Translations under genes and position numbers: made by a program
Part shown: one piece after another, positions 5,634 to 54,510 of the stretch
Numbering within the stretch: the stretch's first letter is position 1
Layout: each line of letters starts with the position of its first letter
Notes under the pieces: model-generated
What the model was told of the DNA's origin: nothing
The model's database searches: none
The model's input: only the letters and a program-made list of their open reading frames with translations
Assembly: GCA_951406725.2 (NCBI GenBank)
Contig: OX597817.1
Span: 59,954,001 to 60,018,000, forward strand
Source: Octopus vulgaris
Lineage: Eukaryota
Length of the DNA: 64,000 bases
Reading direction: 5' to 3'

Positions 5634-5676
5634 TGCTGTGTGTGGTGCAAGGTAAACCTTTTTTTCGCCAACACAC

Positions 5677-8700: not shown

Positions 8701-9223
8701 AGGTGCCAATCAATGGGACTGAACCCAAAACCATGTGATAAGGAAACAAACTTCTTAACCACACAGCCATGCTTGCTCCATTAACAAAATAAGATACATC
8801 ATCTTTTAACATCTGTTTCCCATGCTGGCATGGGTTGGAGAGTTTGGCCAGAGCCGGCAAGCCAGAGAGCTGCATCAGATTCCAGTCTGATTTGACTTGG
8901 TTTCTACGGCTGGATGCCCTTCCTAATGCCAACCATTTAACAGTGTGTGCTGGGTGCTTTTAATGTGCCACTGGCACAAGCACTGATATACTAAATATTT
9001 TTTACCTCCTGAAATTTCATGTTATCACTAAGACAGCAACATGGTTTACACAAGAAAACGCAATTGGGTTGGTAATCTAGGATGAAAAGTTATGCAAAGT
9101 GGTGGATTGGGCATGAAACATAGGGGTTATGGTTAATCTCCTTTGCAGCTAGATACCACAACCATTTCAATGAGCAAACCTATTACCAACTATAGTAATA
9201 ATATAAAATGTGGATTAACTTAC

Positions 9224-9327
9224 TGGGGTTGCTTTCCGCTTGGTTGCTAATTTACCCAAAGCATTGTTGACTACAGCCTGTGTAATGGGGTCCATCTCTT
9301 CCTCATCTTTGCCACGAAATCCTCTAC
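9224..9327 (-). CDS. ZNF385-like, coding exon 2
   Basis: ttttcttgcttag|...|gtaagt, phase 1 to 0. Encodes GRGFRGKDEEEMDPITQAVVNNALGKLATKRKATP; MDPITQAVVNNALG resembles the ZNF385 family motif MDPVQKAVINHTFG. Confidence 0.88.
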
Positions 9328-10575
9328 CTAAGCAAGAAAAATAACAGTTATTACAGCCATCCATACAACATGTCATTTCAAACAACCATTACCTCTAATT
9401 GTAATATAATCTGGTCAGGCTTCAAACACAGGAACATGGAACTTGGCAGTCGACTGAATGATTACATACACAAATCCGATACATTGCAGCATTTACAAAC
9501 ACAAGTTCATCAGAAAAGAGAAAACACACACACACAGAACTTAAGGTAAGTGTGAGAGGCCAGATCTGGGTGGTTTGAACACAAAACAAGTAGAATTATG
9601 TGGACCGGACACAGCCAGTTTAAATGCTCGTGGTTAAAGCATGCAGTTTGTGCCATAGAACTATAGGAGCAGTCTCGGGTGAGATGGTATCAAAAGGGTT
9701 CAGCTAGTTTTTCTTTCTTTGCAATCAAATGTAGTGCATAATCATTTCATTACGAGAAACAACCAATAAGTTATAAGATCACAAAGAACTCGAGATTGGT
9801 ACAAGTTGCTTAATGACATTTAATCTGAACTGCTGACATGATAAATCTCATTACAGATAACCAATTTGATAAACTCCTCATGCAGCACACTGCCCAACAA
9901 TTTTGTAATAGAAATTTGTCACCTCAAATTTTTTCAACACCCTATGCTGGCATGGGTTGGACGGTTTGACTAAGGTGTGGAGAGCCAGCGGCTGCACCAG
10001 GCTCCAATCTGATCTAGCAAGGTTTCTACAGCTGGATGCTCTTCCTAACAGCAACCACTCAGAGTGTAGTGGGTGCTTTTTACATGCCATCAGCACAGGA
10101 GCCAGTCACGTTTGGATAATGCTTTTTACATGCCACCAGCACTGGGGCCAGTCAGAGGGTACTGGCATCAGCCAGGTTCAGTTGGTGCCTTTTACATGCC
10201 ACCGGCATAGGAGGCAGTCAGGGGGCACTGGCCATGATATAATAGGTACACACAATGAGCGCTCAATGTCTAAACTGAAGTTAAGTGCAAGGATGATGGA
10301 TCTGTCTATATACAAACTGCCTCTAGCAAATTTATCATTCAAGCTGGTACAGGTATAAAAGTAAAAAAGCATAAACAAGTATTCACCAGGTATCAAATAA
10401 TAAAATATTTATATAACATAGTGAAGAGATTAGGAAACCAGAAAGAGTCTTGAATGTGAAAAGTTCAGAAAGGTTCACAAGTAGATAAGTACACTAGAGG
10501 ATGAGGTAGAAAAGAAATTCATATGACTTAAGTAAGCAGATAAATTTGACATCTAAAAGCACTTCAACAACCCAC

Positions 10576-10723
10576 CTGCTTCATCAGCCGGTAAATCTGA
10601 ACGCATTTTACGTAAATGTGTTTTCCCTGTTCGATGCTGCACCAATTGTACCTCCGAGTTCACAGTAACGTCGCATACCTCACACCGATACGAACCAGTA
10701 TTTTTCTTTGGAAAGAAATCCAT
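10576..10723 (-). CDS. ZNF385-like matrin-type zinc finger protein, first coding exon (finger 1); whole exon 10576-10745
   Basis: MDFFPKKNTGSYRCEVCDVTVNSEVQLVQHRTGKTHLRKMRSDLPADEAG, with C-x2-C-x12-H-x5-H spacing. Acceptor ttgtttgcag before 10745, donor G|gtgggt after 10576. The start ATG at 10723 is inferred. Confidence 0.85.
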
Positions 10724-13312: not shown

Positions 13313-15364
13313 ATGAAGAATCCAAAAAAGGAACCATTGTAAGAAATTTCACATTGTGCCACGTATCTTCATCATCATTTAACATCCATTACCCTCAACA
13401 ATTCCATGCACTACTAACATTTGTAGAAATAGTCATGTCAGAAAGACCCAGCAACATTGAAACTAGCAGTAGAGAAAGAAAAAAAAAAGCACTAAATACT
13501 TACCGGTTGAGAATTATAACAATAATTTCATTAAAGATTTGAGCATCTATTCGTTTACTGTAATGAAAAAATAAAATTCAGTTGTTACACACACCAGGAG
13601 AAAATGATATTTGATTTAATTCTTGATTGCTTTTCTCCTATGTTTAAATAAAACATTCTGTGACCACCACATCAGTGACTGCCATAAACCTCACCATGTA
13701 AAAGAAGGGTGAGGCGGTGTCGATTGTTTCAATTCTAAAACAGTATTAAGTCTTTTAACCCTTTTAATATCAACCCACCCAAGACCAACTCTGGATTTGT
13801 AATACAAACTCTGTTTTAAAGTGATCGAAAAATTTTACACGAAAACTTCATAATTTAGGTTCATAAACTAGCTTGATAACAACAAAATTATTTTACAAAA
13901 TTCCTCATTATTTTCAAAATAAGTGAAAAAAGGGCAGTGCATACCAATAGAAATATGGTAACAGAAAGATTAAACTAGCCATATCTGGCCTCTCAGACCT
14001 ACTCCATAATATTCTAAAAATAATTCTGACATTGAAATCTTGTACACTTCAGATAAAGCATTTTCATTGAAACACAACTGTAAATACTGTGAAATTTTCA
14101 ATAGCAGATAGTTTTTTTTCAACATTTGAAGCAGCAATTGATTTGTTTTTGATCTGTATTTCTCAATTTGGCTTCAACTTGGAAGGATTTACAAAGCAGA
14201 GAAGAAAAAGAACAGTGACTTGTCTTTGGATGCAAATATTTCTAAATTCGTCTGACAAGGAAGAAAGTTTTGGGAGCAAAAGTGACGAAGTTCTTCAGGA
14301 TGCCATTCAAAATGTTACAGCGACATCGTCAAACAATACAACAGCAACACATATCATCCTTGATTGGACAGAAAATATGTAATTCTGAATCATTGGTATT
14401 TATACAAAACTTCAATTCTGCACATAGAAAATGAAGTTACAAACATTGTTGATACCTCCCCAGCCCCCACCTTCTTGAACGTGATTAATTCAAAACCATG
14501 TGAATAAATTAAGCATCACATTTGACAGAAGAATGTAAATGCTGAAGGGTTGAACCAAAGGAAATGTCAACTAAGAGACAAATATTAATACATGTTTACT
14601 CTCTGCAAATAGGTTCGTTTTCTAACCATTACAACTTTGCCATAAATATTAAGACTGTTTTGTCAGAGTTATGTTTACAAATTGGTTTCTTCCATCCTCA
14701 GGATTGAAATATTTCATAATTGCTCCTATGAAGTAATACAACAGCAATGTAGCAGAACTGTCATGAAACTGGTGACAAAAGAATTTATACTCAAAATCAC
14801 TGAGTGTCTTGCTTAAATAAGGATTCATAAACATGGATTCTGTGACTGTAAATAAATTATATACTAGTTCTATTTCCTACAAAATCTCATTAGCTAACCT
14901 CTAATTAGCAGTAACAAGGAGAAAGCTATTTCACCTGTGTTTAGTCCCGCTGCATGAAACCTTGGGCAAATGTCTTCTACTAAAGTTTCAGGTCAACCAA
15001 AATCTTGAGAATGGATTTAGCCAACGGAGACTGAAAGAAGCCCATTGTGTGTGTGTGTGTTTCCTTGCTTTGATACTGTGTCACTGTCATACAAGTGGTG
15101 GCTGTTTCCAGTCATCCAAGAGATGTCTGACCACAGGGGAACATTACCTTTCATGGAAACAGACGAAGGTTGGCAACAGAAAGGGCATCTGACTGTAGAG
15201 AAAATACAACAAATTCCATCTGACTCATTGCAAGCATGGAAAAAGTGAATGTGAAAATGATGATGCCTGACTGAAGTGAAAGACCAACTGGTGAGCCATG
15301 ACTAGCTAATCTGATACCAAATGCCATTTAACAATTCGATTTCAATTCAAATACAAAAACTTAC

Positions 15365-15430
15365 CTCAATGACTGTCCCAAACTTCAAGACAACTTCTTT
15401 TGTGGACTTTCAATAAACTTTAATTCATGT
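15365..15430 (-). other. Probable 5' UTR exon of the zinc-finger gene
   Basis: Strong acceptor ttttttcttgtttttttcag and donor GAG|gtaagt. Contains a TGA in frame with the downstream exon and a minimal uORF ATG-AAT-TAA. Confidence 0.65.
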
Positions 15431-16670
15431 CTGAAAAAAACAAGAAAAAAAGCCAAAATCATTTCCCAATTAATACACAGAATTGTTTTAATGTCTGCTT
15501 TTTCCACAGGTGAATTAGACAAGATCTACTGAAGCAGTCTGTTCACAGCCAGATATGCACATCCTATCACCGAACCTTACTCGTTTCAAAAGTTACTTGT
15601 TTTCCTCGTCATTCAAACAACTGTTGAAAGGCTGGGCATGCTTTACAGTAGATATAAACAAGGGCACTACCTATATAGTAACATCAGTTTCCTATGCAGC
15701 ACAAATGCACTCACACACACAACAGGCTTCCATAGTTTCCATTTACCAATTTCATTCACAAGGTAATAATGATCAGTCAAAAGCAAGAACAAACTTAAAA
15801 CCATATGGTTTCTTAAATGAACCTTACACCTACATCTACAAAACAGTCTTGTGTTGTATGATGGTGTTTAGGAGGGATCTGCAAACCAGAAAGGGTTTCA
15901 AGAGGAAAAGGATTGGGGAAAACATTTACTGTAAAGCGATAGTGAGATAATGGTAAGAAAGTTTAAAGGATCTAATCTTCCAATTCAGTGTCTGAATTAT
16001 TTTCAATATAGGGGCAGGCATGACTATGGTTCAGAAACTCACCCTGCAACCAAACAGTTCAATCCCATGGCACAGCACCTTCAGTAAGTTTCTTCTACAA
16101 TAGCCCCATACTGCTACATGAATTCACACACACACACACACTTCCTACTGCCTGACATCCAGTGTTGGTTTCTGTATGTCCTCAGCAACTTAGCAGTTTG
16201 ACAAAAGAGAATGGTGGAATAAGTACTAGATGTAAAAATAAGTACGGGGGTTCATTTGTTCAATTAAACCATTCAAGGTGGTGTCCCAGCGTAGTAGCAG
16301 CTCAATGACCAAACCAAATTTTCCAAGAAGAGAACCAAGGAACTTCTATGAATTGACAAACATCATAGTGTGATTATAATTTTATATTTACAGTGATGAA
16401 CAAAGTATGTATGATATACCTGTACAAAGCAGGTTTATGCTTGCAGGAATAAACTGTTTGTAAAAGGGTCAATCATTGCCAGAATTTCAGGGACCCATTA
16501 AATGATGTCCCCACCAGTACCAAATAAAATATTTGGTAAAGTTTTAAACAAACTTTAAAAAATGTGTCACAGATAATGACTAGAACACTGAGTGGCTGGG
16601 AAGATTTAATACAGCAGGAATTACACAAGAAAATTAGGCTTGAATCTAAGTTGCATCTAACTGGCTTCCT

Positions 16671-16899
16671 TTAACCTTTTAGTATTTAAACCGGCCATAT
16701 CCGGCCCAAATATTTAACCTGTTCTGTATTCAAACTGGCCAGATCTGGCTTTACACACTTATCCTACAATGTCATTCTAAGAATAAGCAACTACATCCTC
16801 AAAATTTTAATGCTATGATGTCTTTGCATGATTGATTCAAAACAATGTGAATAAATAAGCATTACATTTGACAAAATAATCTGAATGCTAAACGATTAA
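16671..16899. mobile_element. TTAA-flanked MITE, family B
   Basis: ttaaccttttagtatttaaaccggcc...ctgaatgctaaacgattaa. Related copies at about 53611-53836, 38686-39265 (interrupted), 9550-9637, and 13972-14060 + 14480-14552. Confidence 0.65.
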
Positions 16900-17791
16900 A
16901 CAGAATACCAGATCCAATGACATATAAGATGCATTTTCTCAAGTCTCAATAAAGTACCCAGGGGTTTTACATATGAAGCTGGACTTGTTTTAAATGCACC
17001 AAAGAGTTTTCTTGCTGAATGTGCACCGTTGAAAGAGAAGTGCATCAAACGTGCTTATGCACCTTTCATGACATCGAACATGGTACATAAAGAACACATA
17101 GTATAGTGGATCTTAGAGTGCTTGTGACTAATGATTAAAAGAGTATTTCACTACAAAACCCATTCTACAAGCCAACAAGATGGTGGCCTGAACAGCTGGA
17201 AGTAACAACCAGATTTCACAATACCAATCTTTGAAAAAGACACATTAACTATCATTGTGTTTGGAAAAGAAAAAAGAAAATTCTGCATGTAAAAGATGGA
17301 AATTATTAAAATACTTTTGAACAGACATCATCATCATCATCACCACCAATCCTCTTCTATTTAACATTTTCCGCACGGCCAGACATCTTTATTTACAGTA
17401 TATTGGAGATGAGTGACACTAGTTTACAATGTCAAGACAAGACCACACGATAGGTTTCTTTCAGTTTCCATCTATGAAATCCACTCACATGGTTTTGGTT
17501 GGCCTGGGGTTACAATAGAAGACACTTGTCCAAGGTGCCATGCAGGGGGACTGAACCCATAACCATGTGGTTGGGAAGCAAACCTCTCAACCACACAGCC
17601 ATACCCACAACATTTGTAGCAGTAAGTGATAAACCAATTGTATTCCACCTGATATCACTTACAATGGATATCAAGTAATTAAGAACAAAATATATATATG
17701 TAAATTCCACTAACTGACTAACTAGATGAGCAAAAGGTCAACAAAGATCCAGATCAAAGAGGCAGAGCTGATTTCACATGGTTTCCATTAA

Positions 17792-17984
17792 CCCTTTCAA
17801 TAACCACCCGGCTGAAACCGTCTCTGGTTCTGTAGTACAAATGTCTTGTTTTCAAAAGTACTGAATTAAAATCTCCCACAAAACTCAAGTTAGAATTTAC
17901 ATTCCCTCACACTAGCTGAATGATAACTAAATTATTTTACTAAATTCTGTTGAGCATCTCAACAGAAATACGGTAACGAAAGGG
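17792..17984. mobile_element. piggyBac-type MITE family A, opposite orientation
   Basis: TTAA-CCCTTTC...GTAACGAAAGGG-TTAA, reverse complement of 11026-11246. Further copies at about 13759-13970, 18685-18885, 50935-51143 and a fragment at 25080-25190. Confidence 0.8.
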
Positions 17985-18339
17985 TTAAGCAGAGGGAAAA
18001 AAAAATTCAACAATAAGTAGAAGACATGCAATCCAAATATTTTTGGAAAAACCATGTATTACACAAGACAAGTGAGAGATGAATGAAAGCCAACATATTG
18101 AAGCTTGCAGCTTGAATTAAATTTATCAAATTGGAAGAGTTCCAATTCTTCCATTGTCTTTTCCAAGAATTTTAGGAGGTTGTTTACATCAACAAATTCA
18201 ACAAGTAATTTGGCATATGGAGTCCTTTGATTCTGCCACCAATTGGTGACCTTTTTTTTAAAAATATATTTTAGTAATTAATAACCATGTTATTGAGGAA
18301 GGAAAATTAGAAGAGAATAATACAAACTCTTTCTTTGTC

Positions 18340-18590
18340 AGCAACAGAGGTTAGAAGAAGCAGAGGCCAGCACCAAGTGTCGACTTAATGGGGACATGCC
18401 ATAAGACTAAGTCCTAAAGTGGAACCCTCAGAAACAACAGCATAGTGGACATCCCAAGATGAACTGGTACCAGACAATCAACAGGAACCGACAACAGGAT
18501 TTGCACTGCAAGTTGTTGCTAACCGATCCTACCGGACTACTTTGACTGCCTCATGAGTCACATGACATGGGCAAGTCTTGGAGTAAATAA
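18340..18590 (+). mobile_element. Old RTE-like LINE 3' relic
   Basis: VLKWNPQKQQHSGHPKMNWYQTI resembles the RTE C-terminal WNPQGKRKRGRPKxTW. Confidence 0.4.
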
Positions 18591-21500
18591 GTTCTTGCTG
18601 AGAAAAGCCCATAAAACTACTTCCACTTTTGGATCACACATGGTCTGAAGGTTTTTTTTTTTACTTAAAAACAAGTTACTTTATCCCTTTTGATGGCAAC
18701 CTGCCTGAGACAACCCTAATTCTAAAATACAAATTGTGTTTCAAAGTGATCTCAATTAAAAACTTTCGTCAAAATTTCAAGTTAATTTACATTGCAGACA
18801 CCAGCTTAATCAGTTATTTTACTAAATTCTTCATTACTTACAAAATAAATAGCAAGTCAGTGGGTTTCACCAGAAATATGGTAAAAAACAAAAATACATG
18901 AATTGGTGTTCACAAGAACTGATAGGGTATAAATCTCAATCTATTTGATTGAAAAGGATGGGCAACCTATTCAAATGAAACAGTCAATATAGGGCTTATC
19001 TACCATCTTTGTACATATTTCCTTGAATCACTAAAAGATCAAGAGTGATACTAATACAAGCAACCAAATTAAGGGATATTATGTATTTGAGCCTTTTGTT
19101 GGCATAATTCTATTGAAATGTACTGCCTTTGTTTCAGTTTTGAAAATAATGAAGAATGTAGTTGAAATAACTCAATAAGATGGTGTTTTGGAACTTTAAC
19201 ATAAAATTTTGATTAAATTTACATCACTCTCAAATAGGAAATTCATATTACAGAACATTCTGTAAAGTGGTTGGCATTAGGAAGGGCATCCAACAGTAAA
19301 AACCATGCCAAAACAGACAGTGAAGCACGACAGGATTCCTCTGGCTTGCCAAGTCATCCAAACAATGCCAGCATGGGAGACAGGTGCTAAATGATGACAA
19401 GACAAACCAGCAGTGGTCCAAGAATAAATTGGAATAAAAATAAAATCTGAAAAAGATCACTGCTTCATTAAACAGCTGTGTGTTTTGCATACTGTGCTAT
19501 GTGGTCAAGAAGTTTGCTTCCCAACCACATGGTTTTGGGTTCAGTCCCACTGCATGGCACCTTGGGCAAACGCCTTCTATTATAGCCCCAGGCTGATCAA
19601 AGCCTTGTGGTAGATGGAAATTGAAAGAAGTCCATTGTGTATGTGCAGGTGAGTTTGTTGGTGTCTCTGTCTTCATACAATTGCTGTTGTAAATGATTGC
19701 CACTGTCATTCATTTCCAAAATAGAGTGAAAACTTGTCTGGCCATGGGGAAATATTACCTTGCTTGGAAACAGGTGAGGGTTGGCAATAGGAAGGGCATC
19801 CAGCCATAATAAACCCTCTCCAGTCCACGCGAGCAGGGGACAGTGGAGGTTCAAAGAATAGACAGACATAGATATAGATACATGACATGCATCAGTAAAG
19901 TTTCTTCTACCTAAACCATTACAATGGATCTGAGTACCGAGAACACAAGCAGAAGATGCTTCTCCATCACAAACTGAAAACATTGATAATACACATTTCA
20001 GAGAAAAATACTGGACGGAAATTGAAATGAAAGTCTTGATTGTATCAAAGGGATTAACTCCAACAAACTCAAATTTCACAAGGGAACTCCTTTAAGCTCT
20101 TCTCAAATTGTCTCAAAAACATTTCTTGGGTACTTATAGCTAGTCAATATATTACAAATACTTTTTGTTTTCTTCCTCTCTGCTCAAATAGTGCTGGCCA
20201 AGCTTCAAATTTTAAACTCTTCATCCAAGTCTCTTTTAAATGGTAGAATACTGATAATTTCCAATTAATAAAAATTGGAAACTATTTCAAATTAATTAGA
20301 TATTCCAACAGTTACCAGATTGTTTCAGTCTTCTAATTTAAAATGCTCAGTCTTAGATACATTGTAATGGTATACATAAAGCACACAATAGAAAATGACA
20401 CAAGTGATCATGGAAACATTTTTTACAAAGGAAAATATTACATAACTAAATGAAATATTATAGAACAGAAAATTTTAAATATTATCTTTATCATGATAGC
20501 TGCTTATTAATTAGTTTGGAGTATGTAACTTTTACTAAAAGAAAGGAAGTATTAAAGTCTACACTGTCAATAAAATCCTTAAAAATTTTAATTTTAATGT
20601 TTTCATCAAAATGTGGTTTACAAGATTCTTTTATTATTGAAGAGTTCGACTACACAATACAATCAGAAAACTAATTTTCATTCATTGTGATCGTATTTTT
20701 CTTTCTAATGTTTCACAACCTTCCCTCTTTGTCTTTTTTCTCTCTGTCATTGACAATGACACAATTTATAAATATTTATATTGTTTATACTTTTAGAAAT
20801 ATAAAAGTTCCCCAAATATTTCCACTGCTACTTCCTACAGACCTATCACTTTCATGATGTTCAGAAATTGTATACAATAAACAAAGGAAAGTATGCACAT
20901 CTTAATCATATTATCACCACCTGCAGGCATGGCTGTGGGGTAAGAAGCTGGCTTCCCAACCACATGGTTCTGGGTTCAGTCCCACTGCATGGCACCTTGG
21001 ACAAGTGTCTTCTACTATAAGCCTTGGGGCAACCAAAGCCTTGTGAGTGAATTCCGTAGACAAAAACTGGAAGAAGCCTGTCGTGTATGTATGTATATAT
21101 ATATATATTTCCATGCTGGTTGGATAGTTTGACAGGATCTGGTGAATTGGAGACTTGCATCAACCTCCAATATCAGCTTTAGCATGGTTTTTCCAGTTGG
21201 CTGCCTTTCCCAACACTAATCTCTTTGCATTGTAACCGGTGCTTTTCCCATGCCATTTTAACCATTATATATATATTATCAAACACAACACGGATGCAAT
21301 AACTCACAAAGAGATACAAAGAATTAAATTTGGTTATCTTGGCTAACAAATCAGTCATCAATTCCAGTGGTACTTATTGATCACATTTAGCTTCAAACCA
21401 ATCTTGGTCAAAGAGATTTCAGCTAGGACCATCTCATTTTTCATTCGTTGTATACCTAATGTTTTGGTTTTTTTTTTTTAAGTGATAAGGTGTAATTTGA

Positions 21501-22264
21501 GAGGTTTGGATATTTTTGGTGGGTTGAGTGACCACAGACAGGCTCCAAAATACTTGGTGAGATTTAGTTACAGCGCTTTAAGGTTCAAATTTTACTGAGA
21601 TCAACTCTCGGACTTCTGGAATTGATTTAATCAACTAACTCCTCATCCAAAATAAGGCCTTGTACCAGCACTTCATTCCAAGGGTCCAACGAATGCAAAA
21701 GAATTTACCATGTCAGAAAATATTTTCCAGTTGAACAAGTCGAAATGTTTTTCTTTGAAAAGAAAAAAAATTGAGGGCAAAAAGGCAAATCTGATGAAAG
21801 CTATAATTTTGCAGTTAAGTAACTTAATCTCCTGCATTTGCTGTTAATCACTTTCTATTCTAGTAACATTCAATACACTTGTTAATTAACAGGAATGCTT
21901 TGTTGACATTAATTAAGAATATGTGATAAAATACTAGGTGGATCCAACTAAAATAAGGAAAACACCTAACAGATACTACTGTCTGTCGATAGGTTTAATT
22001 TCATTTAATAGCTTCATTTTGTAAGAAAACAAAAATCATTTTGTGGCCTGACAAAAAAAAAAAAGGAAACAAAATCACTTGATTTACGGTGCCATGGAAA
22101 CGGAAAGGAGCTTTTGTGTTTACATATTTCAGCTGATAAATGGTGGAAAGATTTTATGCATGAAAACTTAAAGGGTTAACCTAATCAATTGCCACAGGAA
22201 TTTTGAGTTTATGTGTGGGAAGATTCTGCATTTGAACTCATGCATTATTCGATTCTACCGATAA

Positions 22265-22600
22265 GTCTATCGTTGACATGATGTTCACATGGACCAATGA
22301 ACAAGCACCTGACCATGCATGCAATGGCGTAAGAGAAGGACACGAGTTCAGATTGGTGCTGAGGCAAATGTTTGCTACAACTAACATTTTAAATGTGGTG
22401 ACGATTATTTTGGCGCCGGATAAAAGGTGCATCTCCGAGACCAGCATGGGACACATTCATAATACAAAAAGTGGAAAGATGTATAACAATATAGTTCTTT
22501 CGTAAACGAAACCAAGACAAAAATAATAATGCTATTTTCGCAGTGATCTCGTTTACATTTAGCACAGCACACCAAACTGTAAACAAAATTGTTTATCTCG
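22265..22600. promoter_or_regulatory. Copy 1 of a duplicated non-coding module (copy 2 at 28095-28420)
   Basis: Collinear blocks atcgttgacatg / tttgcYRcaactaaca / gtgacRattattttggcgccgg..aaa...gcatStccgag / tgtaaacaaa / ttatctc. Confidence 0.6.
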
Positions 22601-22661
22601 ATACCTTTTTCATGGGGAACAGTGAACGGTACCGGTTCCTAAAAGCGAAGTTGCTATTATA

Positions 22662-22663
<2 letters not shown>

Positions 22664-22714
<51 letters not shown>
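22664..22714. repeat. (AG)n microsatellite
   Basis: About 25 perfect units; another (GA)n at 54443-54507. Confidence 0.95.
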
Positions 22715-22718
<4 letters not shown>

Positions 22719-25700
22719 AAATGGGAATGGAATATCGAAGATACAAATCACAGGAATAAAATAAATCTAGTGATAAAAATTGAAGAGAGAAAGTTCTTGA
22801 TTCATTTTTGAAGAAATACCGATTAATAAAAAAAAAAATGGCAACATGCCAACATACTAAATCAAATGTTAATTGCTTTTTAAAAACCTGAAAAACTCAA
22901 TGTATCTATATCCTTGAAAAAAATCTAATACTTTACGAAGAATTATTATATAAGAATCGAAATTGCAGATTTAACACAGTTCCAGTATTATAGACAGACA
23001 CACGTAACATGAGGTAAAAATTAAGTCATCAACCAAGAATCAAAACAAACATCAATAAAAATGATGAGATTAAATTGAATCGTCAATGGAATTTACCGAT
23101 TGCCATTCTATCGACCCAGGTATGAACTTCGAGGTATGAACTACGTCGTTTGCACAAAATTCCAGTAACACTAATTAAAATAAATAATTACACTTAGAGA
23201 GTCCAGTGTTTTCCAAGACAACATCACATACTTTAAAAGAATAAAATGACGCTGTAAAAAAAACACTTGCCTAAAACAATATCAAACTTCAATATTTCTT
23301 TTAGGCAGCAGTATTCCTTAAACAAATATTATATAAAAGAGATAAAATGGTAAGGAAGCGGCCGCGTAATAAGAATGGGAAAAAAAAAAAAAATAGCATA
23401 AGGGAATGTAAAAAATCTGAATCGTCTTTTCCGAATTACAGAAACGAAGGGAATCCTTTCAAAATGAATTAATCGTGCGCTCCGCTTCCTTGCATTGAGC
23501 TTTGCTCTTCTTTTCAAAACGTTGAGCAAACCTAATTGCTTTATAAAATTACACAAACTGTTGGATTTCATAGGTAAGCATGTAACTTAATAAGACTGCG
23601 TCATACATACAACAACATCTGTGAACCATATTTCGATTATTCCAGCCCGAACAATTTATATAGTAAATAACATTAGGTATAGAGACAAAAGAGGCAAGAC
23701 CAAGCCAAATTCTTTCATAAAATAACAATATCAAAAGACAAATACAATCGCATTTCTAATGACGTAAGCAGAAGCAATTTCCCGGCTGGCTTCAATTTCC
23801 CCACGCCACAAAAAATCCGAAAAACCAAAACAAAATTCGAAGATGTACCCCACCATCACCACAACGTACCAAATATGCTGTCAAAACAACGATTCGACTA
23901 TTGACTGGACTTTTTTAAAACCCCGAGAATTTTTTCACAACGAAGCATTACATATGTGTGTGTTTGGGGAGGGGGTCATTAAAGAACAGGCGGATTCGGG
24001 TGCACAAACTAGAAATTCGAAGAATATTTATGAGAGAGAGAGAGCATTGTTTATCTGCTTTGAAGTATAGATTCATTTCGGCAAATCAAGTAAACCTAGT
24101 TAGAATTCTTATAATCTCCAACTATTGCGCTTATTTTATTTTTATTAAACTGCTTTCTCTTCTACTTCACCATTAAATGTTAAAAAACAAAGAAAGCAGC
24201 AAGCGTCAAAGTAAAGTGAAACCAACAATAATGAAGAATGTATAAAAATAACTTGGCTCTCCTGAATCACTGAAACGAATACGTAAATACTTCAAAATAG
24301 TTATGTGTTTGTGTGTCTGTCAGCCCGTATCCCTCTTAAAGAAGTCCTACAATGGTTACAAAAATAGGAAATCCATAAGATCGGATTCGTTCTTCGAAAA
24401 ATCTCAAATAGGTCTGTTGCAATTATTTTCATTTAATTCTGTCAAAAAGATATGTTTGTTACTGAATGACGCCGATGTTGGAACTGGTCTTACTTTCCGG
24501 GAGAACTGGTGGTGATGGAACCAAGTCCGGCAGAAAAACAGGTGCATTCAAAACAAATTGGTTGAATAAGCCTGCAGAATGTTGGTTAGAAGAAAGAAAT
24601 CCGTTTTTGTTCCCCACACCCCTCAAAGAATTAATACAATATCGAGTTAAACAACGGATACTGGCTTAACCGGTGTTTTTTAAGCTAAAAAAAATGGTAA
24701 CGCCAAATCTCCTGGCTTTCATTCAATAATGGATTCTGCTTGGAACACACTGTACCCGATGGGTGGTGGTTATGGCGATATCGTTAAATACAAAACGCAA
24801 TTTATCAATATTCCGTAATAATAAATACCCAACATTTTATCGATATATCGCCTGATAACGGGATCCATACCTAAAATTGTCGGATGCATGTAGTGAAGAA
24901 GAAACGCGTAAGAATTTACATTTTCGAGTTTCGGTTGGCACGATGAAATAAAATCATTTTGATTGCTATGCCACCTTGTTGTATACTTAAACTCTAGTCC
25001 GAACAGACATCTCCGGTCACAGATTTCTCTTCGAAAGTCTTTCAAATTGATGCTTATGTCAACTTTTCAAACAACGTTAAATTGTTTCAAATGTCAGGTA
25101 ATTAACAATGCATCTTATTAAATTCTTCATTATTTTCAAATTCAAATTGAATAAAGGCATTGTCTTTCAACCGAAATATGGTAAGCGAAGATAGTATTCT
25201 CAGAAATGAAAGTAGAAATCTCTAAACAACTTTTAGGGGCACGCGTGTCTGTGGAGTGCTCAGCCGCTTGCAACAGAATTTCACGAGAAGGCTGTAACCG
25301 TTGATCGGATCAACTGGAACCCTCGTCGTCGTAACCAGTGGACGCCACTTTCATATATTTTACATATATAGTGTGTGTCTACTATACACCCCGATGTGAA
25401 TGATCTGTCCCGTACGCTTGGCAAATTTGTCCTGGTTATGGACCAAGTAAAAAAAGAAGAAAAAGCTTAAGATATTGAAATCAGCAAGGAGCACAACTCA
25501 CAAACAAACAACTAATGCTTATCCCCCAGATTCCAGGATTAAAAATGACTTCTCGAGATACAGATTACGATTTAGAATTTACGAAAGTTTATTTTTTTTA
25601 TCAAACTCTAAAGTTCGGAATCAAATAGGAGAGAAGAGGATGCGGCAAGACTTCCTCTCGCCCCCCATTAGGGTTTTAGGGTTAGTGTTGGGGAAAAAAG

Positions 25701-25956
25701 TCAAAATTGAAGTTGGTGGGAAAGGGAGAAAAAAATTTCACAATGCCGATTTTTGGCAAAAAAAAAAAATTACAAAAATAAATAAATTAGGGATAAAATG
25801 GGGGGAGGGGTCGGAAGTCTTCCCAAGGATGCACGTTGTGGATAGAGAAAATTAAGTTATAAACCTATACAGATACAGTAGAATCTCGATTTTCGACCAA
25901 TTCTGATCACGAATATATCGTACTGTATCTCCTGTCTTTCTCATATTCATTTAATA

Positions 25957-26388
25957 CAGTAGTACCTCGGTTTACGAACGCCTCTGATCACGATTAAATC
26001 GTGCTTTATATATATATATATATATATACATTCGAGCGAGGTCGTTGCCAATGCTGCTGGACTGACTCTTGTGCAGGTGGCACATAAAAAACACCATTTC
26101 GAGCGTGGCCGTTGCCAGTACCGGCAGACTGGCCCTCGTGCCGGTGACACGTAAAAGCACCCACTACACTCTCGGAGTGGTTTGCGTTAGGAAGGGCATC
26201 CAGCTGTAGAAACTCTGCCAGATCAGATTGGAGACTGGTGCAGCCATCTGGTTCGCCAGACCTCAGTCAAATCGCCCAACCCATGCTAGCATGGAAAGCG
26301 GACGTTAAATGATGATGACGATTTTATATATATATATAAAGCACGATTTATTCGCGATCAGAGTTGTTCGAAAACCGAGGTACTACTG
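25957..26388. mobile_element. Tigger/pogo-type palindromic MITE with nested retroposon
   Basis: TA|CAGTAGTACCTCGGTTT...AAACCGAGGTACTACTG|TA, with about 60-bp inverted arms and central (TA)n interrupted by 26030-26322. Confidence 0.85.
26030..26322 (+). mobile_element. RTE-type non-autonomous retroposon (SINE-like) with (GAT)n tail
   Basis: gttaggaagggcatccagctgtagaaac core, ending catgctagcatggaaagcggacgttaaatgatgatg. Recurs many times in the window. Confidence 0.85.
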
Positions 26389-28094
26389 TACCTATAATTT
26401 TAAAGTTGTTCTGGTTTGAGCGTAAGGCACTATGGTAAGACTGAACACAAACATATATACGATATAATATGGAGTTGCCAGTTAATAAGAACATATTTAG
26501 ATCACTTAAAAAGAACGAGGTCCTAATGTTAATGTTTTGCTAAATACATTGATTTCGATGTTCAGTAGAAGGTATCAGATAATATATATTTTAGCACGAA
26601 ACTCTCAGACCTTGAGTCACTCAGTTACTTCTGCTAGATATTATTAATATATATACTCATATTTTGAGTTCCATTTTTCCTGTTTGCGCCAACATACATA
26701 GGTGCTTATGTATTTGAGCCCCCTCGTCAAACAAACGGTGTCCATTTCCAATCTTCCATGGGAAACATGCGGGTGTTAGCGACAGAAAGAGCATCTTTGC
26801 TCGTAAAATATTAGCCTCGACGAATTCCGTCTGACCCATGCATGCAAGGAAAAGTAGATATTAAAACGATGACGATACACAGTATCCCAAATCCTGCAGT
26901 TTAGGTCGCTTCGAATTCGCCACCGTCAATATTTATATTCAAGTTGAAAAAGAACAGTGGTTCTATGAATAAAGAAGCAGCAATTTGTGACAATGAGAAA
27001 CAAATATCAAGACAATGCAATTTACGGTGGATTCAAGAATAAAGATGAATAGAAGGAGAGGGAGAAGATTTTCAGAACTAGATGCAATTTAAAAGTTTTA
27101 CAGCAAAAAGGTCCGAGAATATGCCGAGTCAACAGCCATTGAAAATGATGAGCAATTCCCAAAAAAGAACGTTTCCATATTTCTATAAAAAATGTCTAAG
27201 TGACGGTTTGCGACGGGAAGGGCATCCAGCCGTAGGAAATCCGCCTCCAGAAAATTCCGTCCGACCCATGCTAGCATGGGAAAAGTGGACGTTAAACCGA
27301 TGAGGATTATATACAAGTACCGCAGGGGCTTGTGCGTTTACAGTCGGGTAGTTTAGAAACTTATGCATTAGTATGATTTTTTTTTCAGCGATAAAATAGT
27401 TATGTTTGAATACCAAAGTAAAAAAAAAAAACTTGTGTTTTAAGACTGGCATATTTTTATATTCAGGTCCCGAAGGCGCTAATGGGATAACTATTAAAAG
27501 GCACCAACAAATACGAATACACAAAATAGTTTGAAATTACCACAAATATGTATAAAGATCTGTAATTGTCAATTTATAACCAACTGGAACAGATTTTACA
27601 TAATCCTAATTTTTAAGTCTGTAGAAACAAAATCTCTTAAAAGACACGAATTCACATCAAGAAGGTTGCAAGTCAAATACAAAAACGAAATCACTTTACT
27701 ACGAACCCTAAAATGTCAATTTTCTCTTAGAACCAGGGGTCAGATACAGCATCAATTAATTGCTAGTTACATAGATTGTAGGTACAAGGATTTTGCATTC
27801 CAACTTAATCTAAACTGATATTCTAATATCAGTAATCTTAAAAGGTGAAGAGGGGCCGATTACATAAAGCAAGTGTCCAACAGGTACTTTGCTGTTAGGA
27901 CGAAACGGCAAAGTAAACTTCGGCGGGATTAGAACTTAGAGCATAAAAACAGCCGGAAGAAACACCGCTAAGCATTTTGTCCGGAGTGCTAACGATCCTA
28001 CCAGTTTGCTGTCTTTGAACAAAATCTAAACTGCAATGTAAAACAAGGCCGGTCGGTAGAATCATGCAGGCATTTACTTCCGCTGGTTTCTCTC

Positions 28095-28420
28095 AATCGT
28101 TGACATGGGGAGGTTTTTATATATGTTTCATGTTATTTAATTACATCACAACTATGGAGAGATGTACAAATGCGTGAAAATGCGAAATATTTGTACGGAA
28201 AGATATATTAGTGTCTCAATTTGCCGCAACTAACAATATACGGGACATGGTTAATGTGAAATGTGACAATTATTTTGGCGCCGGGCAAAGCGCGCATGTC
28301 CGAGGCTGAACATGTGACAACATCCAGTGTGAAGATACGCGAAAGACTGTTCGATCCTTTTTCTGTGAAGCTCGGAGGATCAAATCACACGAATTGTAAA
28401 CAAATAGTCCCTTATCTCAT
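28095..28420. promoter_or_regulatory. Copy 2 of the duplicated non-coding module
   Basis: Same blocks in the same order and orientation as 22265-22600; spacers cannot be aligned. Confidence 0.6.
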
Positions 28421-31353
28421 TGATAAGAGAGACTGACTGTGAAGGGCACGGATTCCTTAAAGAAGAGGTTGACAGTAAAGTTGGAAGAGGGGGAAACAAA
28501 AAGCAATCACAATGGAAATGAAATAAAAATCAATGAAACAAGATGAGTTTAGATAAAAACAAAAGAAAAAGGGTTGGCATCTAGTGTGAGAATTGAAACT
28601 GAGGAGAGAAAACGTTCTTGTTTTACAAGAAATATTGCTAACAACTTGATGGCTACGCGCCAAAATAGCAAAAGCAAATTTTTTGATAGATATATCAGAC
28701 CTGTTTTACGGTTAGCTCTGGGAAATATTTTCTTTTGCTAGATTTATCAGCTGCAATGATTAATTCCAACATGAAGAAGGATTAAATTTATAGAGCAGAA
28801 GAGTAACAATGATCGCGTGTGACGACGTCCATAACTTGCTTCAAGGACGTGAAAAGAAAGAAAAATCGGTTACCCTGGAGAATGGAAACTGAAGCTTTTA
28901 AAGACCGGGATTAAACGATTAGATCAAATCCATTTGTCAATCGGATTCACCGGTTCTCATTCGATCGGTACCGACATGCTTAGGAGTCGTTTAAACTAAA
29001 TTAGAATACAACGATGTTTATATTGAGTTGCAATTTACTCGTAAATTTTTTGCTCCTAAAGCAACAATCGTACATCAGATAAATGTCACTGAGAAAACAA
29101 ACCGATATACAATGGGGATGTATATTGATTTCGGTGAACCTTTCTCGAAAGTACCAGCAAATAAATAACACGAAATTCATTATCTCTACATAATGTTCTA
29201 TGACGCAGCGAGTTCTTCACTCAAATACAAGACACATTACGAACAAACAGTGACACACTTTCGCCCAAATTACCTTATCAAAAACACCGAAAAAACAAAA
29301 CGAAATAAGGAACCGATAGTTCTTCCAATATTTCATAATGCCAACACTATCGGATAACACGAAAGAGAAAAAATAGGGTAAATCAAGAACCAAGCAGCAC
29401 CAAAACAAAACTGTTTTCTATGTTACATGCATATATACACCCAGGCGTATATATATATGACATACATACAAGCACGTGAAACAGACATGAGTACACGCCT
29501 AGATAGATATATACACACAGCACGTATCGCGAAATGTTTCATTGCTAACGCAGCCTTCATCCTTTCGCCATATTCTCAATCGCGCCGGTCTTTTAAATCA
29601 TTAGAAGAAGAGATTGAAGAACAAGGGGACATGTCTACGAAATGTCTATTTCCTATACATCAAACAAACCCGTCGCTTTCATATTCCACAATCGTCAGCA
29701 TTAATTTCTTAAAAACTGAATCGAATTAGACTGAAATACATTTGGCCACATTTCCCCCTTTTCCTTCCTCGCGATACGTATATAACGCATAAACAAAGCC
29801 TCAGAGGTGCATGGCTTGTTTTATAAATAAGCCAAGTTAGTGTACCATAAAAGTATGAAACTGTTAGCTCTTTCAGTTCTGTATTAAATTGATACACAGA
29901 CATCTCTTTTCGTTATCCGTAACGATAGAATTTCCTTCCTCTCCAAAGCACCCCGAATTTTCAACCTATATATATGTGTGTGGTTGTTGGAAACTATACA
30001 TTGCTAATACACGAAACTTTCGGCCCTTCACTCATCCACTAACTTTTCCCCCGATTTTATATATATATATATAATTCCAAAATGACGATTATATATGTAA
30101 AAAAAGGTGGAGGAAATACGCGGTCATGCAAAAAAAAAAAAAGAGAGAGAGAGAAGAGGAAGAAGCTGACTTTTTGGTGGCGGTAATCAAGTGTGAAGGA
30201 AATGCGAAATGAGGAAGGAAGTCCATCTAATCAAACAGAAATCACCTATTTTACACCGAAGAAGCATATTTAAATAAACACTGCTATTGTGTTACATAAC
30301 ATGGAATTGGGTTTTAATGGTCAGAAAGACTAAAAGGTGGGCAATTGGAGATGAAGTCTTTGGAGGGGTTTAAATATATCATTCTCCAGCATCTTGATGG
30401 ATACCTAACATACACTCACTCACACAGGTCCTTTCATTAAAGGATTATATTTTAATTGCTTATACGTTTTTACATCCATTATTATTATCGTTAGAAGAAA
30501 AGGTGTTATATCTCTTAAAATTTAGACACTAAAAATATTTTTAATATAATTAACTTCCCCACATTTTTCCTATCTAAAGATTATCAGATAATTCATTGCT
30601 AAGGTAAAAATGGAAACTTATTATTTTCTAAAATGAATAAATATGCAGTTATAAAAAAAAAGGCCACACTGATATTTTTTTTAACAGAAAAGAGATGGCA
30701 AAATAGTATCAACAGAATTATACGGGTTTAAAAATAAAGAAGTGTCACTAAAATGGCAGGCAAGGCCTAGATTGTGAACGAAATTGTAAAAATATGAAGG
30801 GTAGGTTTGTGGAAGATACACGATGAAAGTCAAGTGAAATGGTGGCAGACGTTTAATTAAACCGGCTAAATGCTAATTATAAATGTATATTTTATGCATA
30901 AATGTATATTCCTGATAATGATCGATATTAAAGTATATAAATGTGAAGTGCGTATGATATTTGTGTGGTTAGAAATGCTGTAATGCCGTGTCTCGTTGCT
31001 ACCATGTCTTCTAACAGAGAACATGACGGCAAACCATGGTTATGACGACGACGGCGGCCGGCATTGACGCACACAAATCATTCTGATGTCTTCTAGTGAA
31101 AAAAAAATAGTTGGCTGTTAGAATAATTGTAGGATGTTTCATATACATTACAAATGACACAGAAAAGTGGTGGAGGATGGTGAAGAAAAAAAAAACAATT
31201 AAATTGGAAAGAAAACTACAAAAAATGACGAGGGGGGGGGAGCAACTAAAAATAATGTCAATTTCAATCGGGTATTATTTGTTTTAATTTGATAATTAAC
31301 AATCGACTATTATGACAAACAGACTGCCAAGTCTTGTAATATATACACTCGTC

Positions 31354-31415
31354 CATATATATATGTATATATATACGTATGTATATATATCTATGTATAT
31401 ATATATCTATGTATG

Positions 31416-31446
<31 letters not shown>

Positions 31447-31508
31447 CTATATCTATATATATATATATCTATATATATATCTATATATATATATATCTAT
31501 GTATGTAT

Positions 31509-31541
<33 letters not shown>

Positions 31542-31567
31542 CATATATATACATGTGTATACACACA
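31354..31567. repeat. Compound (TA)n/(TATG)/(TATC) microsatellite
   Basis: Directly visible; source of the YIYIYI ORFs. Confidence 0.95.
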
Positions 31568-32139
31568 GATATGGTCCAAGACAATAAAGCAACCGGCGGA
31601 AATAGGTTTACAGAGATGGTGAGGGGGGGCATCATGTACATTAACCACAAATTGCTCTGAGATCTAAACTGTGCCATTGTATTCAATGTGTTAGCATCTT
31701 ATTTCGACTGTAGAAAAATATATTTCGACAAATATGACGCATTTTGGGAACTAAAAGTGTTTTGGGGGGTTTAACAGAATCAATTAAATATGAAAACAGG
31801 AGGGAAGAAGGGGCGAGCTGAGGGTTCGGGTTTCCATCTTTTTTTTTTTTTCTCACATCACGATTTATCTATCAAGAAAATTTACGTGTTTCTTAATTAC
31901 AACAAAAGGTTACATAATGTAGATTAATTAGGAAAAAGCAGAGGGAAATAATAGTGGAAAAAGAGGAGAAAATATGATGAATTGTTCGACGAGAACAAAC
32001 GATCCCCGACATTGCGACAACTCCATTATGTGGTGGGGAGGGGAGGTCAGAGAACAAAAGAAAGCGATGCGTTGCGCAAAATCTTGAACATGGAAATTAT
32101 TTTAAAAAATTATTTTCAAAAATGTCCAAAATCACCTAC

Positions 32140-32330
32140 CAATTCTATGAATCTAGGGACTTTCTATAGAGTTTTACAGTTTATGGCGAGCAAATCACAT
32201 AGAAATGTCTGGATTTCAATTCCACGAAATATTGGCCGTCCTGAATTGTCTCCCTTGAAGCGACAAACGTGGTTTACGGACATTGTGATTGGTCGAAAGA
32301 GTGCTAGAAAGCGAGGCTCTGATTGGTTCC
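32140..32330 (-). promoter_or_regulatory. Candidate promoter and first exon of the zinc-finger gene (three CCAAT boxes)
   Basis: ATTGG on + (CCAAT on -) at 32231, 32288 and 32322 in CpG-containing, repeat-free sequence. Donor TTG|gtaggt at 32140/32139. Confidence 0.55.
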
Positions 32331-33518
32331 TGTCATTTCTTCTCTTTTCTAATCATGTCTTTCTCTCTCTCGCTATCTATCTGTCTATTTCCCGGCCTTG
32401 CAACCTTTTCTACTATCTATCTATCTCTTTCGTTCTCTCTATATCTATCTATTTATCTGTCTATCTCTCTCTCTCTCTAAGTAAGGGTTTCTGTAAATTA
32501 ACATATCGTTTCTTTGCCATAAAATTAAACTTGGTTGGAAGGAACTGCATGTCTGTGTCAAATGTCTAAAATATCGGCATTTCTCTAAATTATCTTTGTA
32601 TTTACGATCGGCTTGTTATAAAAATATATCTCTGTGTTCAACGGAATCAGACATGCTTCTTTTTTCTTTCTATTTTCGTCCTCAATGTCTTCTCCACACG
32701 AGAAGCTGAGTGTAACCCAAACACTGACTTCTCTTCTATGATAATTCCGTTCACATCTTGGATGCTTTATAAGGAATATTAAATTGACATCAATACTTGC
32801 CTAGTATTTCATTTTATCAATCCGGGAAGAATTATATTTAAAAAATAGACAATTTAAAAAGAAACACCGATTCTTCATGTCATGGCCTTTAAACCCACTA
32901 GAAAAATACCAAGACCGACAAACGTCATTAAATTTTTCGAAACAAATAATAAAGCTTCAAAATTGTATATTTAACTGTTTTAGTATACAATATGTTTTTA
33001 ACTACAATAATGATCCAATATTTTGGTGGTTCCAACAGGAATTCTTGAATGTATATATTTTTATAGTTATCCATTTATGCTTTAAAAAAGTATTAAGTTC
33101 ACACGGGAGAAACATTATTATTTCTTTCGTTAGAACATTTAATGATATTTGTATTTTATTCTGGTTTATGTTTGTGTTTCCAGTTATTTAGCTTTTTAAA
33201 CTTAAGCCATTGGACTGCGGCCATGCTGGGGCATTGCCTTTAATTATCCTATCCGTCTCTTTTACCGACTATCAAGCTATCATTCTATAAGTTCCAACTC
33301 AAATGTGAGAGGGACAGTCATTAATAACCACCTTCACCAAAGCATTGCATCTCTCTCTCTCTCTCTTTCCTTAATAATAACGGATGGTTTCTCTAAGCCA
33401 AATAAACCAGATCTATTTGGGGGTCTATTCTCCTATTATCACTCACCAGTGCACCCTCACTCTTGAGAAATTTGCTAAAAACAGTGCTGCACTTCCACAT
33501 CAGCAAAACAATTGACTG

Positions 33519-43835: not shown

Positions 43836-43934
43836 CTAGAAAGAAGAAAATTACAGTCGTAAATTTTACTGTCATCAGAGGTGTACAAAGGGTGCAGGTG
43901 GGGTGTTTAGGCATCTGATAGGACATAAAACCTT

Positions 43935-54458: not shown

Positions 54459-54510
<52 letters not shown>

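What the first reader, a model, noticed from the sequence alone, without database searches (positions are those of the whole stretch)
22265..28420. Anciently duplicated non-coding module with island-like conservation upstream of the zinc-finger gene
Seen: two segments of about 330 bp, 5.8 kb apart, share five collinear blocks (atcgttgacatg; tttgcYRcaactaaca; a roughly 60-bp core containing attattttggcgccgg; tgtaaacaaa; ttatctc) while the spacers have diverged beyond alignment. There are no TIRs, tails or other copies in the window. Established motifs: TTTTGGCGCC is E2F-type, TGTAAACA is Forkhead, TTATCT is GATA. Inference: a duplicated promoter/enhancer kept by purifying selection, possibly serving alternative first exons. 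Alternative: a pair of small RNAs, since on + each has an Sm-site-like AUUUUGG followed by a short hairpin (GCGCC/GGUGC; GCGC/GCGC).
Basis: partly seen in the sequence, partly recalled or inferred. Interest (0 to 1): 0.7.

Follow-up and report, generated by a model that had tools for sequence, protein, structure and literature searches.

The report
Old duplicated intronic E2F-type element
Two old copies of a 0.95-kb non-coding stretch lie inside the first intron of an octopus zinc-finger gene; one copy carries a cluster of E2F-type sites and is likely a regulatory element, the other is likely a decaying duplicate, which makes this an ordinary kind of local duplication.

Summary
The duplication is real but differs from the description. 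The unit is about 0.95 kb (A 22240-23200, B 28060-29040), not 330 bp; its spacers still align, and three separate blocks occur as a pair only here in G000. Spliced contigs join an exon at 32140 to one at 15430, so both copies lie inside a 16.7-kb 5' intron of a ZNF346/ZNF385-like gene, not upstream of it; no splice joint into either copy was listed. The 'island-like conservation' is not beyond neutral decay in simulation (1 of 25 tests under P 0.05), so purifying selection is not shown. Positive hints of function: all 4 E2F-type octamers of the 64-kb window lie in the two copies (3 in B; P 0.004 for two or more), both copies sit in CpG-retaining, repeat-free stretches, and the CpG boundary falls at A's edge. 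No Rfam, snRNA-promoter, coding or gag-pol signal. Best reading: B is likely an intronic E2F-type cis-element, A a diverged copy that kept one site (0.5); rival: neutral relic (0.3). A has its own strong sense-strand hairpin, untested. Cross-species conservation and accessibility could not be tested.

The parts
22238..23200 (.). Copy A of the duplicated unit (about 0.95 kb; holds an (AG)n expansion at about 22662-22716)
   Evidence: ends approximate
28062..29040 (.). Copy B of the duplicated unit, 3.1-4.1 kb from the 5'-most exon seen
   Evidence: ends approximate
22269..22280 (+). Block 1 in A (12 nt identical to 28096-28107)
28096..28107 (+). Block 1 in B
22371..22386 (+). Block 2 in A; homologue of a B E2F-type octamer, with CG read as TA
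28220..28235 (+). Block 2 in B; begins with E2F-type octamer TTTGCCGC (28220-28227)
22398..22439 (+). Core block in A with the retained E2F-type octamer at 22409-22416
28263..28304 (+). Core block in B with E2F-type octamer at 28274-28281
28657..28664 (-). Third E2F-type octamer in B; its homologue in A (about 22845) reads CATG for CGCG
22578..22599 (+). Fox-type and GATA-type words in A (labels recalled)
28395..28418 (+). Fox-type and GATA-type words in B (labels recalled)
22619..22645 (+).
22766..22802 (+). Further shared block (with 28580-28623)
23059..23113 (+). Further shared block, 55 nt without gaps (with 28913-28967)
22502..22556 (-). 23-bp hairpin on the host gene's sense strand, in A only; one arm is missing in B
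23258..23319 (-). Second sense-strand hairpin (27 bp) just outside copy A
22245..33000 (.). CpG-retaining domain (observed/expected about 1.0 against 0.28-0.29 on both sides), inferred to be unmethylated; right end between 33000 and 34350
32140..32241 (-). 5'-most exon seen of the ZNF346/ZNF385-like gene, donor G|GTAGGT; 5' end not determined
32231..32326 (-). Three CCAAT words (32231, 32288, 32322) at and beyond the 5'-most exon; likely the promoter
   Evidence: promoter role inferred
15431..32139 (-). 16.7-kb 5' intron that holds both copies
15365..15430 (-). 5' untranslated exon
13504..13557 (-). 5' untranslated exon
2090..10723 (-). Coding exons of the ZNF346/ZNF385-like protein (three zf-met / zf-C2H2_jaz fingers)

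Best explanation
This is an old two-copy local duplication of about 0.95 kb inside the 5' intron of a ZNF346/ZNF385-like gene, in which copy B likely acts as an E2F-type cis-regulatory element and copy A is likely a diverged duplicate that kept one of three E2F-type sites. Shown: the duplication, its size, the two-copy state of three blocks in G000, the intronic position, the octamer counts, CpG retention and the lack of recognised repeats around both copies. Inferred: that the CpG-retaining domain is unmethylated and open; that E2F/DP binds the B cluster and works on the CCAAT-box promoter 3-4 kb away, tying the gene to proliferation; that B is the original and A the copy; that A's remaining E2F, Fox and GATA words give at most a weaker, partly redundant element.
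For: Duplication. Two copies only: patterns from three blocks hit only A and B in G000, apart from one 2-mismatch hit on C27; a gapped pattern gave one further hit (L014) that does not align beyond the pattern. Intronic: 4 of 4 runs join 13557 to 15365 with CT..AC ends, and in 3 of 4 the listed loose end at 15431 maps to 32141 onward. E2F-type octamer TTTSSCGC: 4 sites in 64 kb on both strands, 3 in B and 1 in A, none in 8.8 kb of the same CpG domain; two or more sites in 0.38% of 5000 shuffles of B, three in none; 0 of 66 CpG-rich pieces from other G000 loci hold two. The two B sites that A lacks differ by CG to TA and CGCG to CATG. Setting: CpG o/e about 1 from 22245 on; no window-repeat fragment in 21300-25100 or 28050-33200 against 19 in 11000-21300, and low contig depth in most of 22720-25015 and 28173-31320 at 85% likeness agrees. 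Precedent: duplication signatures in 18.3% of fly and 33.9% of mouse shadow-enhancer sets (PMC13345019 abstract); 7.8% of E2F4 sites intronic and 5 of 10 distal sites active as enhancers (PMC3089461 passages).
Against: No direct functional or cross-species datum. Block-wise conservation between A and B does not exceed neutral simulation. The E2F test is partly after the fact: the motif was named from the core; 14 of 490 degenerate 8-mers drawn from the core also reach three hits in B (4 are versions of this octamer, 8 are A/T-only words), and with three named motifs the P is nearer 0.01. The 66 background pieces come from repeat, Gypsy and U2 loci and are not independent. CpG-type changes are as frequent in the other direction (13 of 22 B-only CpGs, 8 of 14 A-only), so A is not shown to decay faster. 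An unmethylated first third of the gene is a common class in octopus (6545 genes, MP3, PMC9476566 passages), so the CpG setting is not specific. The repeat-free zones are wider than the copies. E2F binds mostly at core promoters. The few variants seen in contigs across A show no dip (2 in the 0.96-kb unit).
Confidence: 0.5

Rival explanations
1. Both copies are a functionless relic of an old local duplication; the blocks are the lucky runs of uniform decay and the motif matches are chance.
For: Neutral simulation reproduces the longest run, the best 42- and 60-column windows, the number of runs and the variance in score-matched replicates (1 of 25 tests under 0.05). Alignment is fairly even along the unit. 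Fox and GATA words are at background density.
Against: Three E2F-type octamers in B. Both copies lack repeat insertions although their divergence exceeds that of the repeat copies in the window.
Confidence: 0.3
2. The two copies are the long terminal repeats of an ancient, fully decayed LTR retrotransposon (0.95-kb direct repeats 5.85 kb apart, 6.8 kb in all), perhaps with promoter-type motifs co-opted.
For: Size and spacing fit a Gypsy-type element (established knowledge); homology stops sharply at both ends; G000 has many Gypsy-type integrase loci (150 scored of 2213 candidates).
Against: No Pfam retroelement hit in six frames of 22200-29100; 77 open frames from 20 G000 integrase loci give nothing above controls (best 22 bits against 22-24); no TGG-type primer site or clear purine tract at the inner ends by eye; no solo copies by three block patterns. 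These tests have low power at this divergence and indel density.
Confidence: 0.07
3. The segment yields or shapes a structured RNA: a microRNA-like or editing-substrate hairpin in the intron, or the reader's pair of Sm-type small RNAs.
For: Copy A has a 23-bp sense-strand hairpin, z -4.2 to -4.9 with 0 of 400 shuffles as stable, with five arm differences that all give G-U on the sense strand (read); a second hairpin lies 700 nt away (z -4.5).
Against: The hairpin is not shared by B (z about 0), so it does not explain the duplication; it has a 5-nt loop and no lower stem; windows were chosen after a scan; no Rfam match at either copy; no RAU4-6GR site at the core and no U2-type upstream motif; no fold of the core is shared by both copies.
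Confidence: 0.07
4. Each copy is an alternative promoter with its own first exon (both have ATGTCAACGAT on the minus strand in block 1, and B has a donor-like AA|GTAAAT at 28077).
For: Shared ATG-containing block and donor-like word; E2F clusters are typical of promoters.
Against: Contigs join 32140 to 15430 across both copies; none of the 14 joints listed has an end in either copy, nor do the 24 loose ends shown (210 not shown); one run has an unspliced 2.6-kb contig through A. A's donor-like word is weak. Contigs drop rare isoforms.
Confidence: 0.06

Closest known systems
Shadow (redundant) enhancers born by local duplication, fly and mouse (PMC13345019; abstract and section 5 read)
   Same: Two non-coding segments at one gene with residual body homology in short identical stretches.
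   Different: Those are defined by shown, overlapping activity; here none is measured. The homology here spans the whole 0.95 kb at about 70%, and no flank homology was found.
Intronic or distal E2F-bound elements (E2F4 ChIP-seq, PMC3089461; passages read)
   Same: Several TTTSSCGC-type octamers in CpG-retaining DNA within a few kb of a CCAAT-box promoter.
   Different: Binding is not shown; most E2F sites are at core promoters; the data are human.
Conserved intronic regulatory sequence of coleoids, e.g. the Quaking B intron element (PMC13652810; passages read)
   Same: Non-repetitive intronic segment in a gene for an RNA-binding-type protein in a cephalopod.
   Different: That element is conserved across species and was knocked out; conservation here is untested, and this one is a within-locus duplicate.
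Octopus gene methylation class MP3 (PMC9476566; passages read)
   Same: [quoted passage not shown]
   Different: Methylation is inferred here from CpG depletion only.
LTR pair of a Ty3/Gypsy retrotransposon (general features recalled)
   Same: Direct repeats of about 1 kb, 5.85 kb apart.
   Different: No gag-pol trace, primer site, purine tract or dispersed copy found.

Membership tests
Duplicated (shadow) enhancer pair | Common ancestry of the two segments | tested here: met
Duplicated (shadow) enhancer pair | Both lie at the same gene, non-exonic | tested here: met
Duplicated (shadow) enhancer pair | Constraint on motif blocks beyond neutral decay | tested here: not met
   paralog comparison only; weak power with two sequences
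Duplicated (shadow) enhancer pair | Clustering of a factor's sites above background | tested here: met
   E2F-type octamer in B only; A has one site
Duplicated (shadow) enhancer pair | Open chromatin and overlapping reporter activity of both | not testable with these tools
   no ATAC, ChIP or reporter data could be laid
Conserved non-coding element | Sequence conservation in other cephalopods | not testable with these tools
   G000 has no relatives here; runs found hold near-identical sequence only
Alternative promoter / first exon | Splice joint from the segment to the next exon | tested here: not met
   contigs join across; rare isoforms not excluded
Alternative promoter / first exon | Capped 5' ends in the segment | not testable with these tools
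   only contigs were laid
Sm-class snRNA | Sm site RAU4-6GR followed by a stem | tested here: not met
   core reads UAUUUUGG; 0 matches at either core; this genome's U2 reads GAUUUUURG
Sm-class snRNA | snRNA-type upstream element | tested here: not met
   ATCAGTS at about -60 in 11 of 14 U2 loci (read by eye); 0 in A, 0 in B
Known Rfam family | Match to a covariance model | tested here: not met
   0 at gathering score in the window; 7 matches at E up to 10 in 21800-28900, none inside either copy
microRNA (hairpin in A) | Stable hairpin of about 55-65 nt | tested here: met
microRNA (hairpin in A) | Loop of 8 nt or more and a lower stem (criteria recalled) | tested here: not met
   5-nt loop, flanks unpaired
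microRNA (hairpin in A) | Reads from both arms with 2-nt offsets | not testable with these tools
   no small-RNA reads served; the miRNA data files of PMC9699675 were not readable
LTR retrotransposon relic | Direct repeats with 4-8 kb between | tested here: met
LTR retrotransposon relic | gag-pol remnant between the repeats | tested here: inconclusive
   none found, low power at this age
LTR retrotransposon relic | Primer site, purine tract, TG..CA ends, target duplication | tested here: inconclusive
   none evident by eye; ends are blurred
Dispersed repeat family | Many copies in the genome | tested here: not met
   three block patterns give the two copies plus one 2-mismatch hit; the DNA searches did not even find the paralog, so copies under about 70% identity are not excluded
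Duplicated coding exons | Shared open frame with third-position bias | tested here: not met
   stops in the frames of both copies; no Pfam hit; mismatches in the two ungapped blocks show no period of three (counted by hand)

The most novel reading that the evidence does not exclude
Both copies are live, tens-of-millions-of-years-old shadow enhancers that put a double-stranded-RNA-binding zinc-finger gene under E2F control; copy A also fixes the edge of gene-body methylation and has grown a sense-strand hairpin that is a small-RNA source or a site through which the encoded protein, or ADAR, regulates its own pre-mRNA.
Probability: 0.06. Interest if true: 0.6.

Novelty: new member of a known kind. 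Interest (0 to 1): 0.22.

Why it matters
Few cis-regulatory elements are mapped in octopus. If B is an E2F-type element and A its diverged copy, the pair is a compact natural experiment on how a duplicated element loses or keeps sites, and a single-copy target for CRISPR or reporter work. As a kind of thing it is ordinary: enhancer duplication is common in fly and mouse. The result also warns that short identical blocks between two old paralogs do not by themselves show selection.

Tried and rejected
Rfam at gathering score and at E up to 10: nothing in the copies. DNA searches of G000 with A, B and the right part of A found only themselves, not even the paralog, so they say nothing on old copies. 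A third copy at L014: a single pattern hit, alignment at shuffle level; L004 matches only over 24 nt. Metagenome scan with the core 20-mer: 3 hits; the 2 read look like microbial coding DNA with no flank likeness, the third was not read. Sequencing runs: no RNA holder listed on record; lack of contig cover over parts of A or B is not used as evidence. at 85% likeness was swamped by repeat contigs (15 of 52 joints, 24 of 1172 loose ends shown). A larger 5.85-kb tandem duplication with a second promoter copy: no homology in 11 of 13 flank windows or in 17 windows at free offset. p53-type response elements: one 3-mismatch pair in each copy, not at homologous places, with 1 to 11 such pairs in every other region scanned. 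Shared RNA fold of the core: none. gag-pol remnants: none. A profile search of G000 with a model of the core could not be run, so a sensitive test for old dispersed copies is missing. Dating: no neutral rate was found in the papers read, so no age in years is given. Literature: short motifs from the hairpins and core found one unrelated paper; none in the readable supplements of PMC9699675 and PMC11701709, whose miRNA sequence files were cut or not held; a search on ZNF385/ZNF346 with intron and enhancer terms listed nothing on this locus. Earlier scan findings: none. The first hairpin scan was too lax and its output cut.
Full report
1. The observation. A local alignment scores 114 against a mean of 34 and a maximum of 54 in 300 shuffles. 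The unit is larger than described. Ungapped blocks on the same diagonal (offset 5817-5865) continue to 23113/28967, and a global alignment of 22240-23200 with 28060-29040 scores 343.5, against 116 +/- 14 in 100 shuffles and at most 155.5 in 54 pieces of the same domain; identity is 571 of 818 aligned columns, flattered by about 53 gaps. Outside the unit there is no homology: 2 of 13 windows of 500 nt stand out (z 11.4 and 4.9), the other 11 have |z| of 1.2 or less, and 17 windows searched at free offset give nothing clearly above controls.

2. Copy number. Patterns from three separate blocks hit only A and B in the 2.8-Gb genome G000, apart from one 2-mismatch hit on another contig. A gapped pattern gave one more place, L014, which aligns no better than shuffles. 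The DNA searches found each query only at its own place and missed the paralog, so very old dispersed copies are not excluded; a profile search of the genome was not available.

3. Gene context. The gene is a minus-strand ZNF346/ZNF385-like gene: one exon is 100% identical over 88% of the query to a cluster labelled zinc finger protein 346 of Octopus bimaculoides, the coding exons run from 10723 to 2090, and Pfam gives three zf-met / zf-C2H2_jaz fingers. A RhoGAP gene lies upstream on the same strand, with exons from about 59.7 to 43.7 kb. No listed run is on record as RNA, but in 4 of 4 runs laid, from four studies, a contig joins 13557 to 15365 with CT..AC ends, and in 3 of 4 the listed loose end at 15431 maps to 32141 onward, next to a G|GTAGGT donor. 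Both copies therefore lie inside a 16.7-kb intron of the 5' untranslated region. None of the 14 joints listed ends in either copy, nor do the 24 loose ends shown (210 not shown). One run has an unspliced 2.6-kb contig through A that starts at 21480, directly beside a T run, as internal priming on minus-strand pre-mRNA would give (inference). CCAAT words lie at 32231, 32288 and 32322; contigs cannot show the start site.

4. Is the conservation island-like? I evolved one copy neutrally along two branches with substitutions and indels (9 settings, 200 replicates each) and kept replicates with a score like the observed one; 5 settings had enough (66-116 replicates). P for the best 42-column window was 0.05-0.39, for the longest run of 16 0.03-0.26, for the best 60 columns 0.24-0.73, for three runs of nine or more 0.50-0.95, for the variance 0.73-0.98: 1 of 25 tests under 0.05. 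The core is at most marginally better kept than chance. The model is simple and two sequences give little power, so selection is not shown rather than excluded. The matching settings imply deep divergence, greater than that among the repeat copies in the window (about 68-93% alike); I found no rate to turn this into years.

5. Hints of function. (a) The E2F-type octamer TTTSSCGC (consensus recalled; the term occurs once in PMC3089461, passage not shown) occurs 4 times in 64 kb: 28220, 28274 and 28657 in B and 22409 in A. Two or more sites arise in 0.38% of 5000 dinucleotide shuffles of B, three in none; the other 8.8 kb of the CpG domain has 0 against 0.6 expected; 0 of 66 CpG-rich pieces from other G000 loci hold two (these pieces are not independent). 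The core site prompted the label, so only the two extra sites count, and with three named motifs P is about 0.01. A's homologues of the two extra sites read TA for CG and CATG for CGCG, but CpG-type differences are as common in the other direction (13 of 22 against 8 of 14). Fox and GATA words are near background; p53-type pairs are not enriched. (b) CpG observed/expected is about 1.0 from 22245 to about 33000 and 0.28-0.29 on both sides; the left change point (range 22055-22255) coincides with A's edge. An unmethylated first third of the gene is a common octopus class (MP3, 6545 genes; PMC9476566 passages), and 22.2 kb is about one third along this gene, so the coincidence may be chance. (c) No window-repeat fragment lies in 21300-25100 or 28050-33200, against 19 in 11000-21300 and 7 in 25100-28050 (fragments from self-comparison of the window plus two added).

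6. RNA readings. Rfam gives nothing in either copy. The core has no fold shared by both copies. Copy A does carry a 23-bp hairpin on the sense strand at 22502-22556 (z -4.2 to -4.9, 0 of 400 shuffles; opposite strand z about -1), and a second lies at 23258-23319 (z -4.5 in the short window, -2.8 in the longer). The first is single-copy and one arm is missing in B, so it arose after, or was lost after, the duplication. It has a 5-nt loop and no lower stem, unlike a typical microRNA precursor (criteria recalled). The miRNA sequence files of PMC9699675 could not be read; unseen supplements may bear on this.

7. LTR reading. Six-frame Pfam gives no retroelement domain; 77 open frames from 20 G000 integrase loci match the inner 4.9 kb no better than controls, and neither copy matches those loci as DNA; no primer site or purine tract is evident. 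Power is low at this age.

8. Verdict. Shown: an old, two-copy, intronic duplication of 0.95 kb. Inferred: B is likely an E2F-type cis-element acting on the CCAAT-box promoter 3-4 kb away, and A is likely a diverged copy with one site left (0.5). Rivals: neutral relic 0.3, LTR pair 0.07, structured RNA 0.07, alternative promoters 0.06. It would work like a duplication-born shadow enhancer (PMC13345019, abstract and section 5) but cannot be filed as one, since activity and cross-species constraint are untested and the paralog test for constraint was not met. I found nothing in print on this locus. Papers seen: PMC9699675 (passages; supplement list, part 1 of the tables, searches of the PDF and of the files held), PMC9476566, PMC13652810, PMC3089461 and 10.1101/2020.08.16.252932 (passages), PMC13345019 (abstract, section 5), PMC11701709 (listing, supplement search); others as listings only. 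New member of a known kind; interest 0.22.

Noticed in passing
window 22251-22261 (-) and 28053-28063 (+): The 11-mer TCGGTAGAATC stands at the left edge of both copies but in opposite orientation, and nowhere else in the window even with one mismatch; it may mark a small inversion at the duplication edge or an orientation-free site.
   Followed up: partly
window 22502-22556 and 23258-23319, minus strand: Two strong non-repeat hairpins on the sense strand of the intron, rich in G-U pairs; among the best non-microsatellite hairpins of the window. Candidates for microRNA or ADAR substrates.
   Followed up: partly
window 43720-59685, minus strand: Exons of a RhoGAP gene with a RHG40-like C-terminal ubiquitin-like domain, head to tail with the zinc-finger gene.
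   Followed up: partly
window 32140-13504, minus strand: The 5' untranslated region spans three exons and 21 kb and holds short upstream frames (MN, MLKSLMKLLL), a possible translational control.
   Followed up: no
window 25868-26396: Nested repeat: inverted ends (25955-26020 and 26325-26390) around a SINE-like copy, with a further partial end at 25868-25928.
   Followed up: no
window 28474-28826: Contigs of two studies cover nearly the same stretch in the right half of copy B (28474-28826 and 28497-28819, depth 9 and 5); a weak hint only, similar to other intron pieces.
   Followed up: no
window 27599-28006: One run has a depth-99 contig matching 27599-27890 closely and then leaving the window sequence inside a repeat; 27626-27691 is a high-copy repeat. 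Unexplained; it begins at a donor-like GTAAAA on the minus strand.
   Followed up: partly
window 5674-5769, minus strand: A 32-codon basic exon (KKWIYVAGFRFRRRKKKK...) is present in the two octopod proteins and absent from the four other homologs found: a possible alternative or lineage-specific exon.
   Followed up: no
L043-L056, 110 nt upstream of U2: U2 genes of G000 (48 scored, several in tandem arrays) fall into at least four upstream classes, most sharing TAATTAART near -90 and ATCAGTS near -60; two loci lack both.
   Followed up: no
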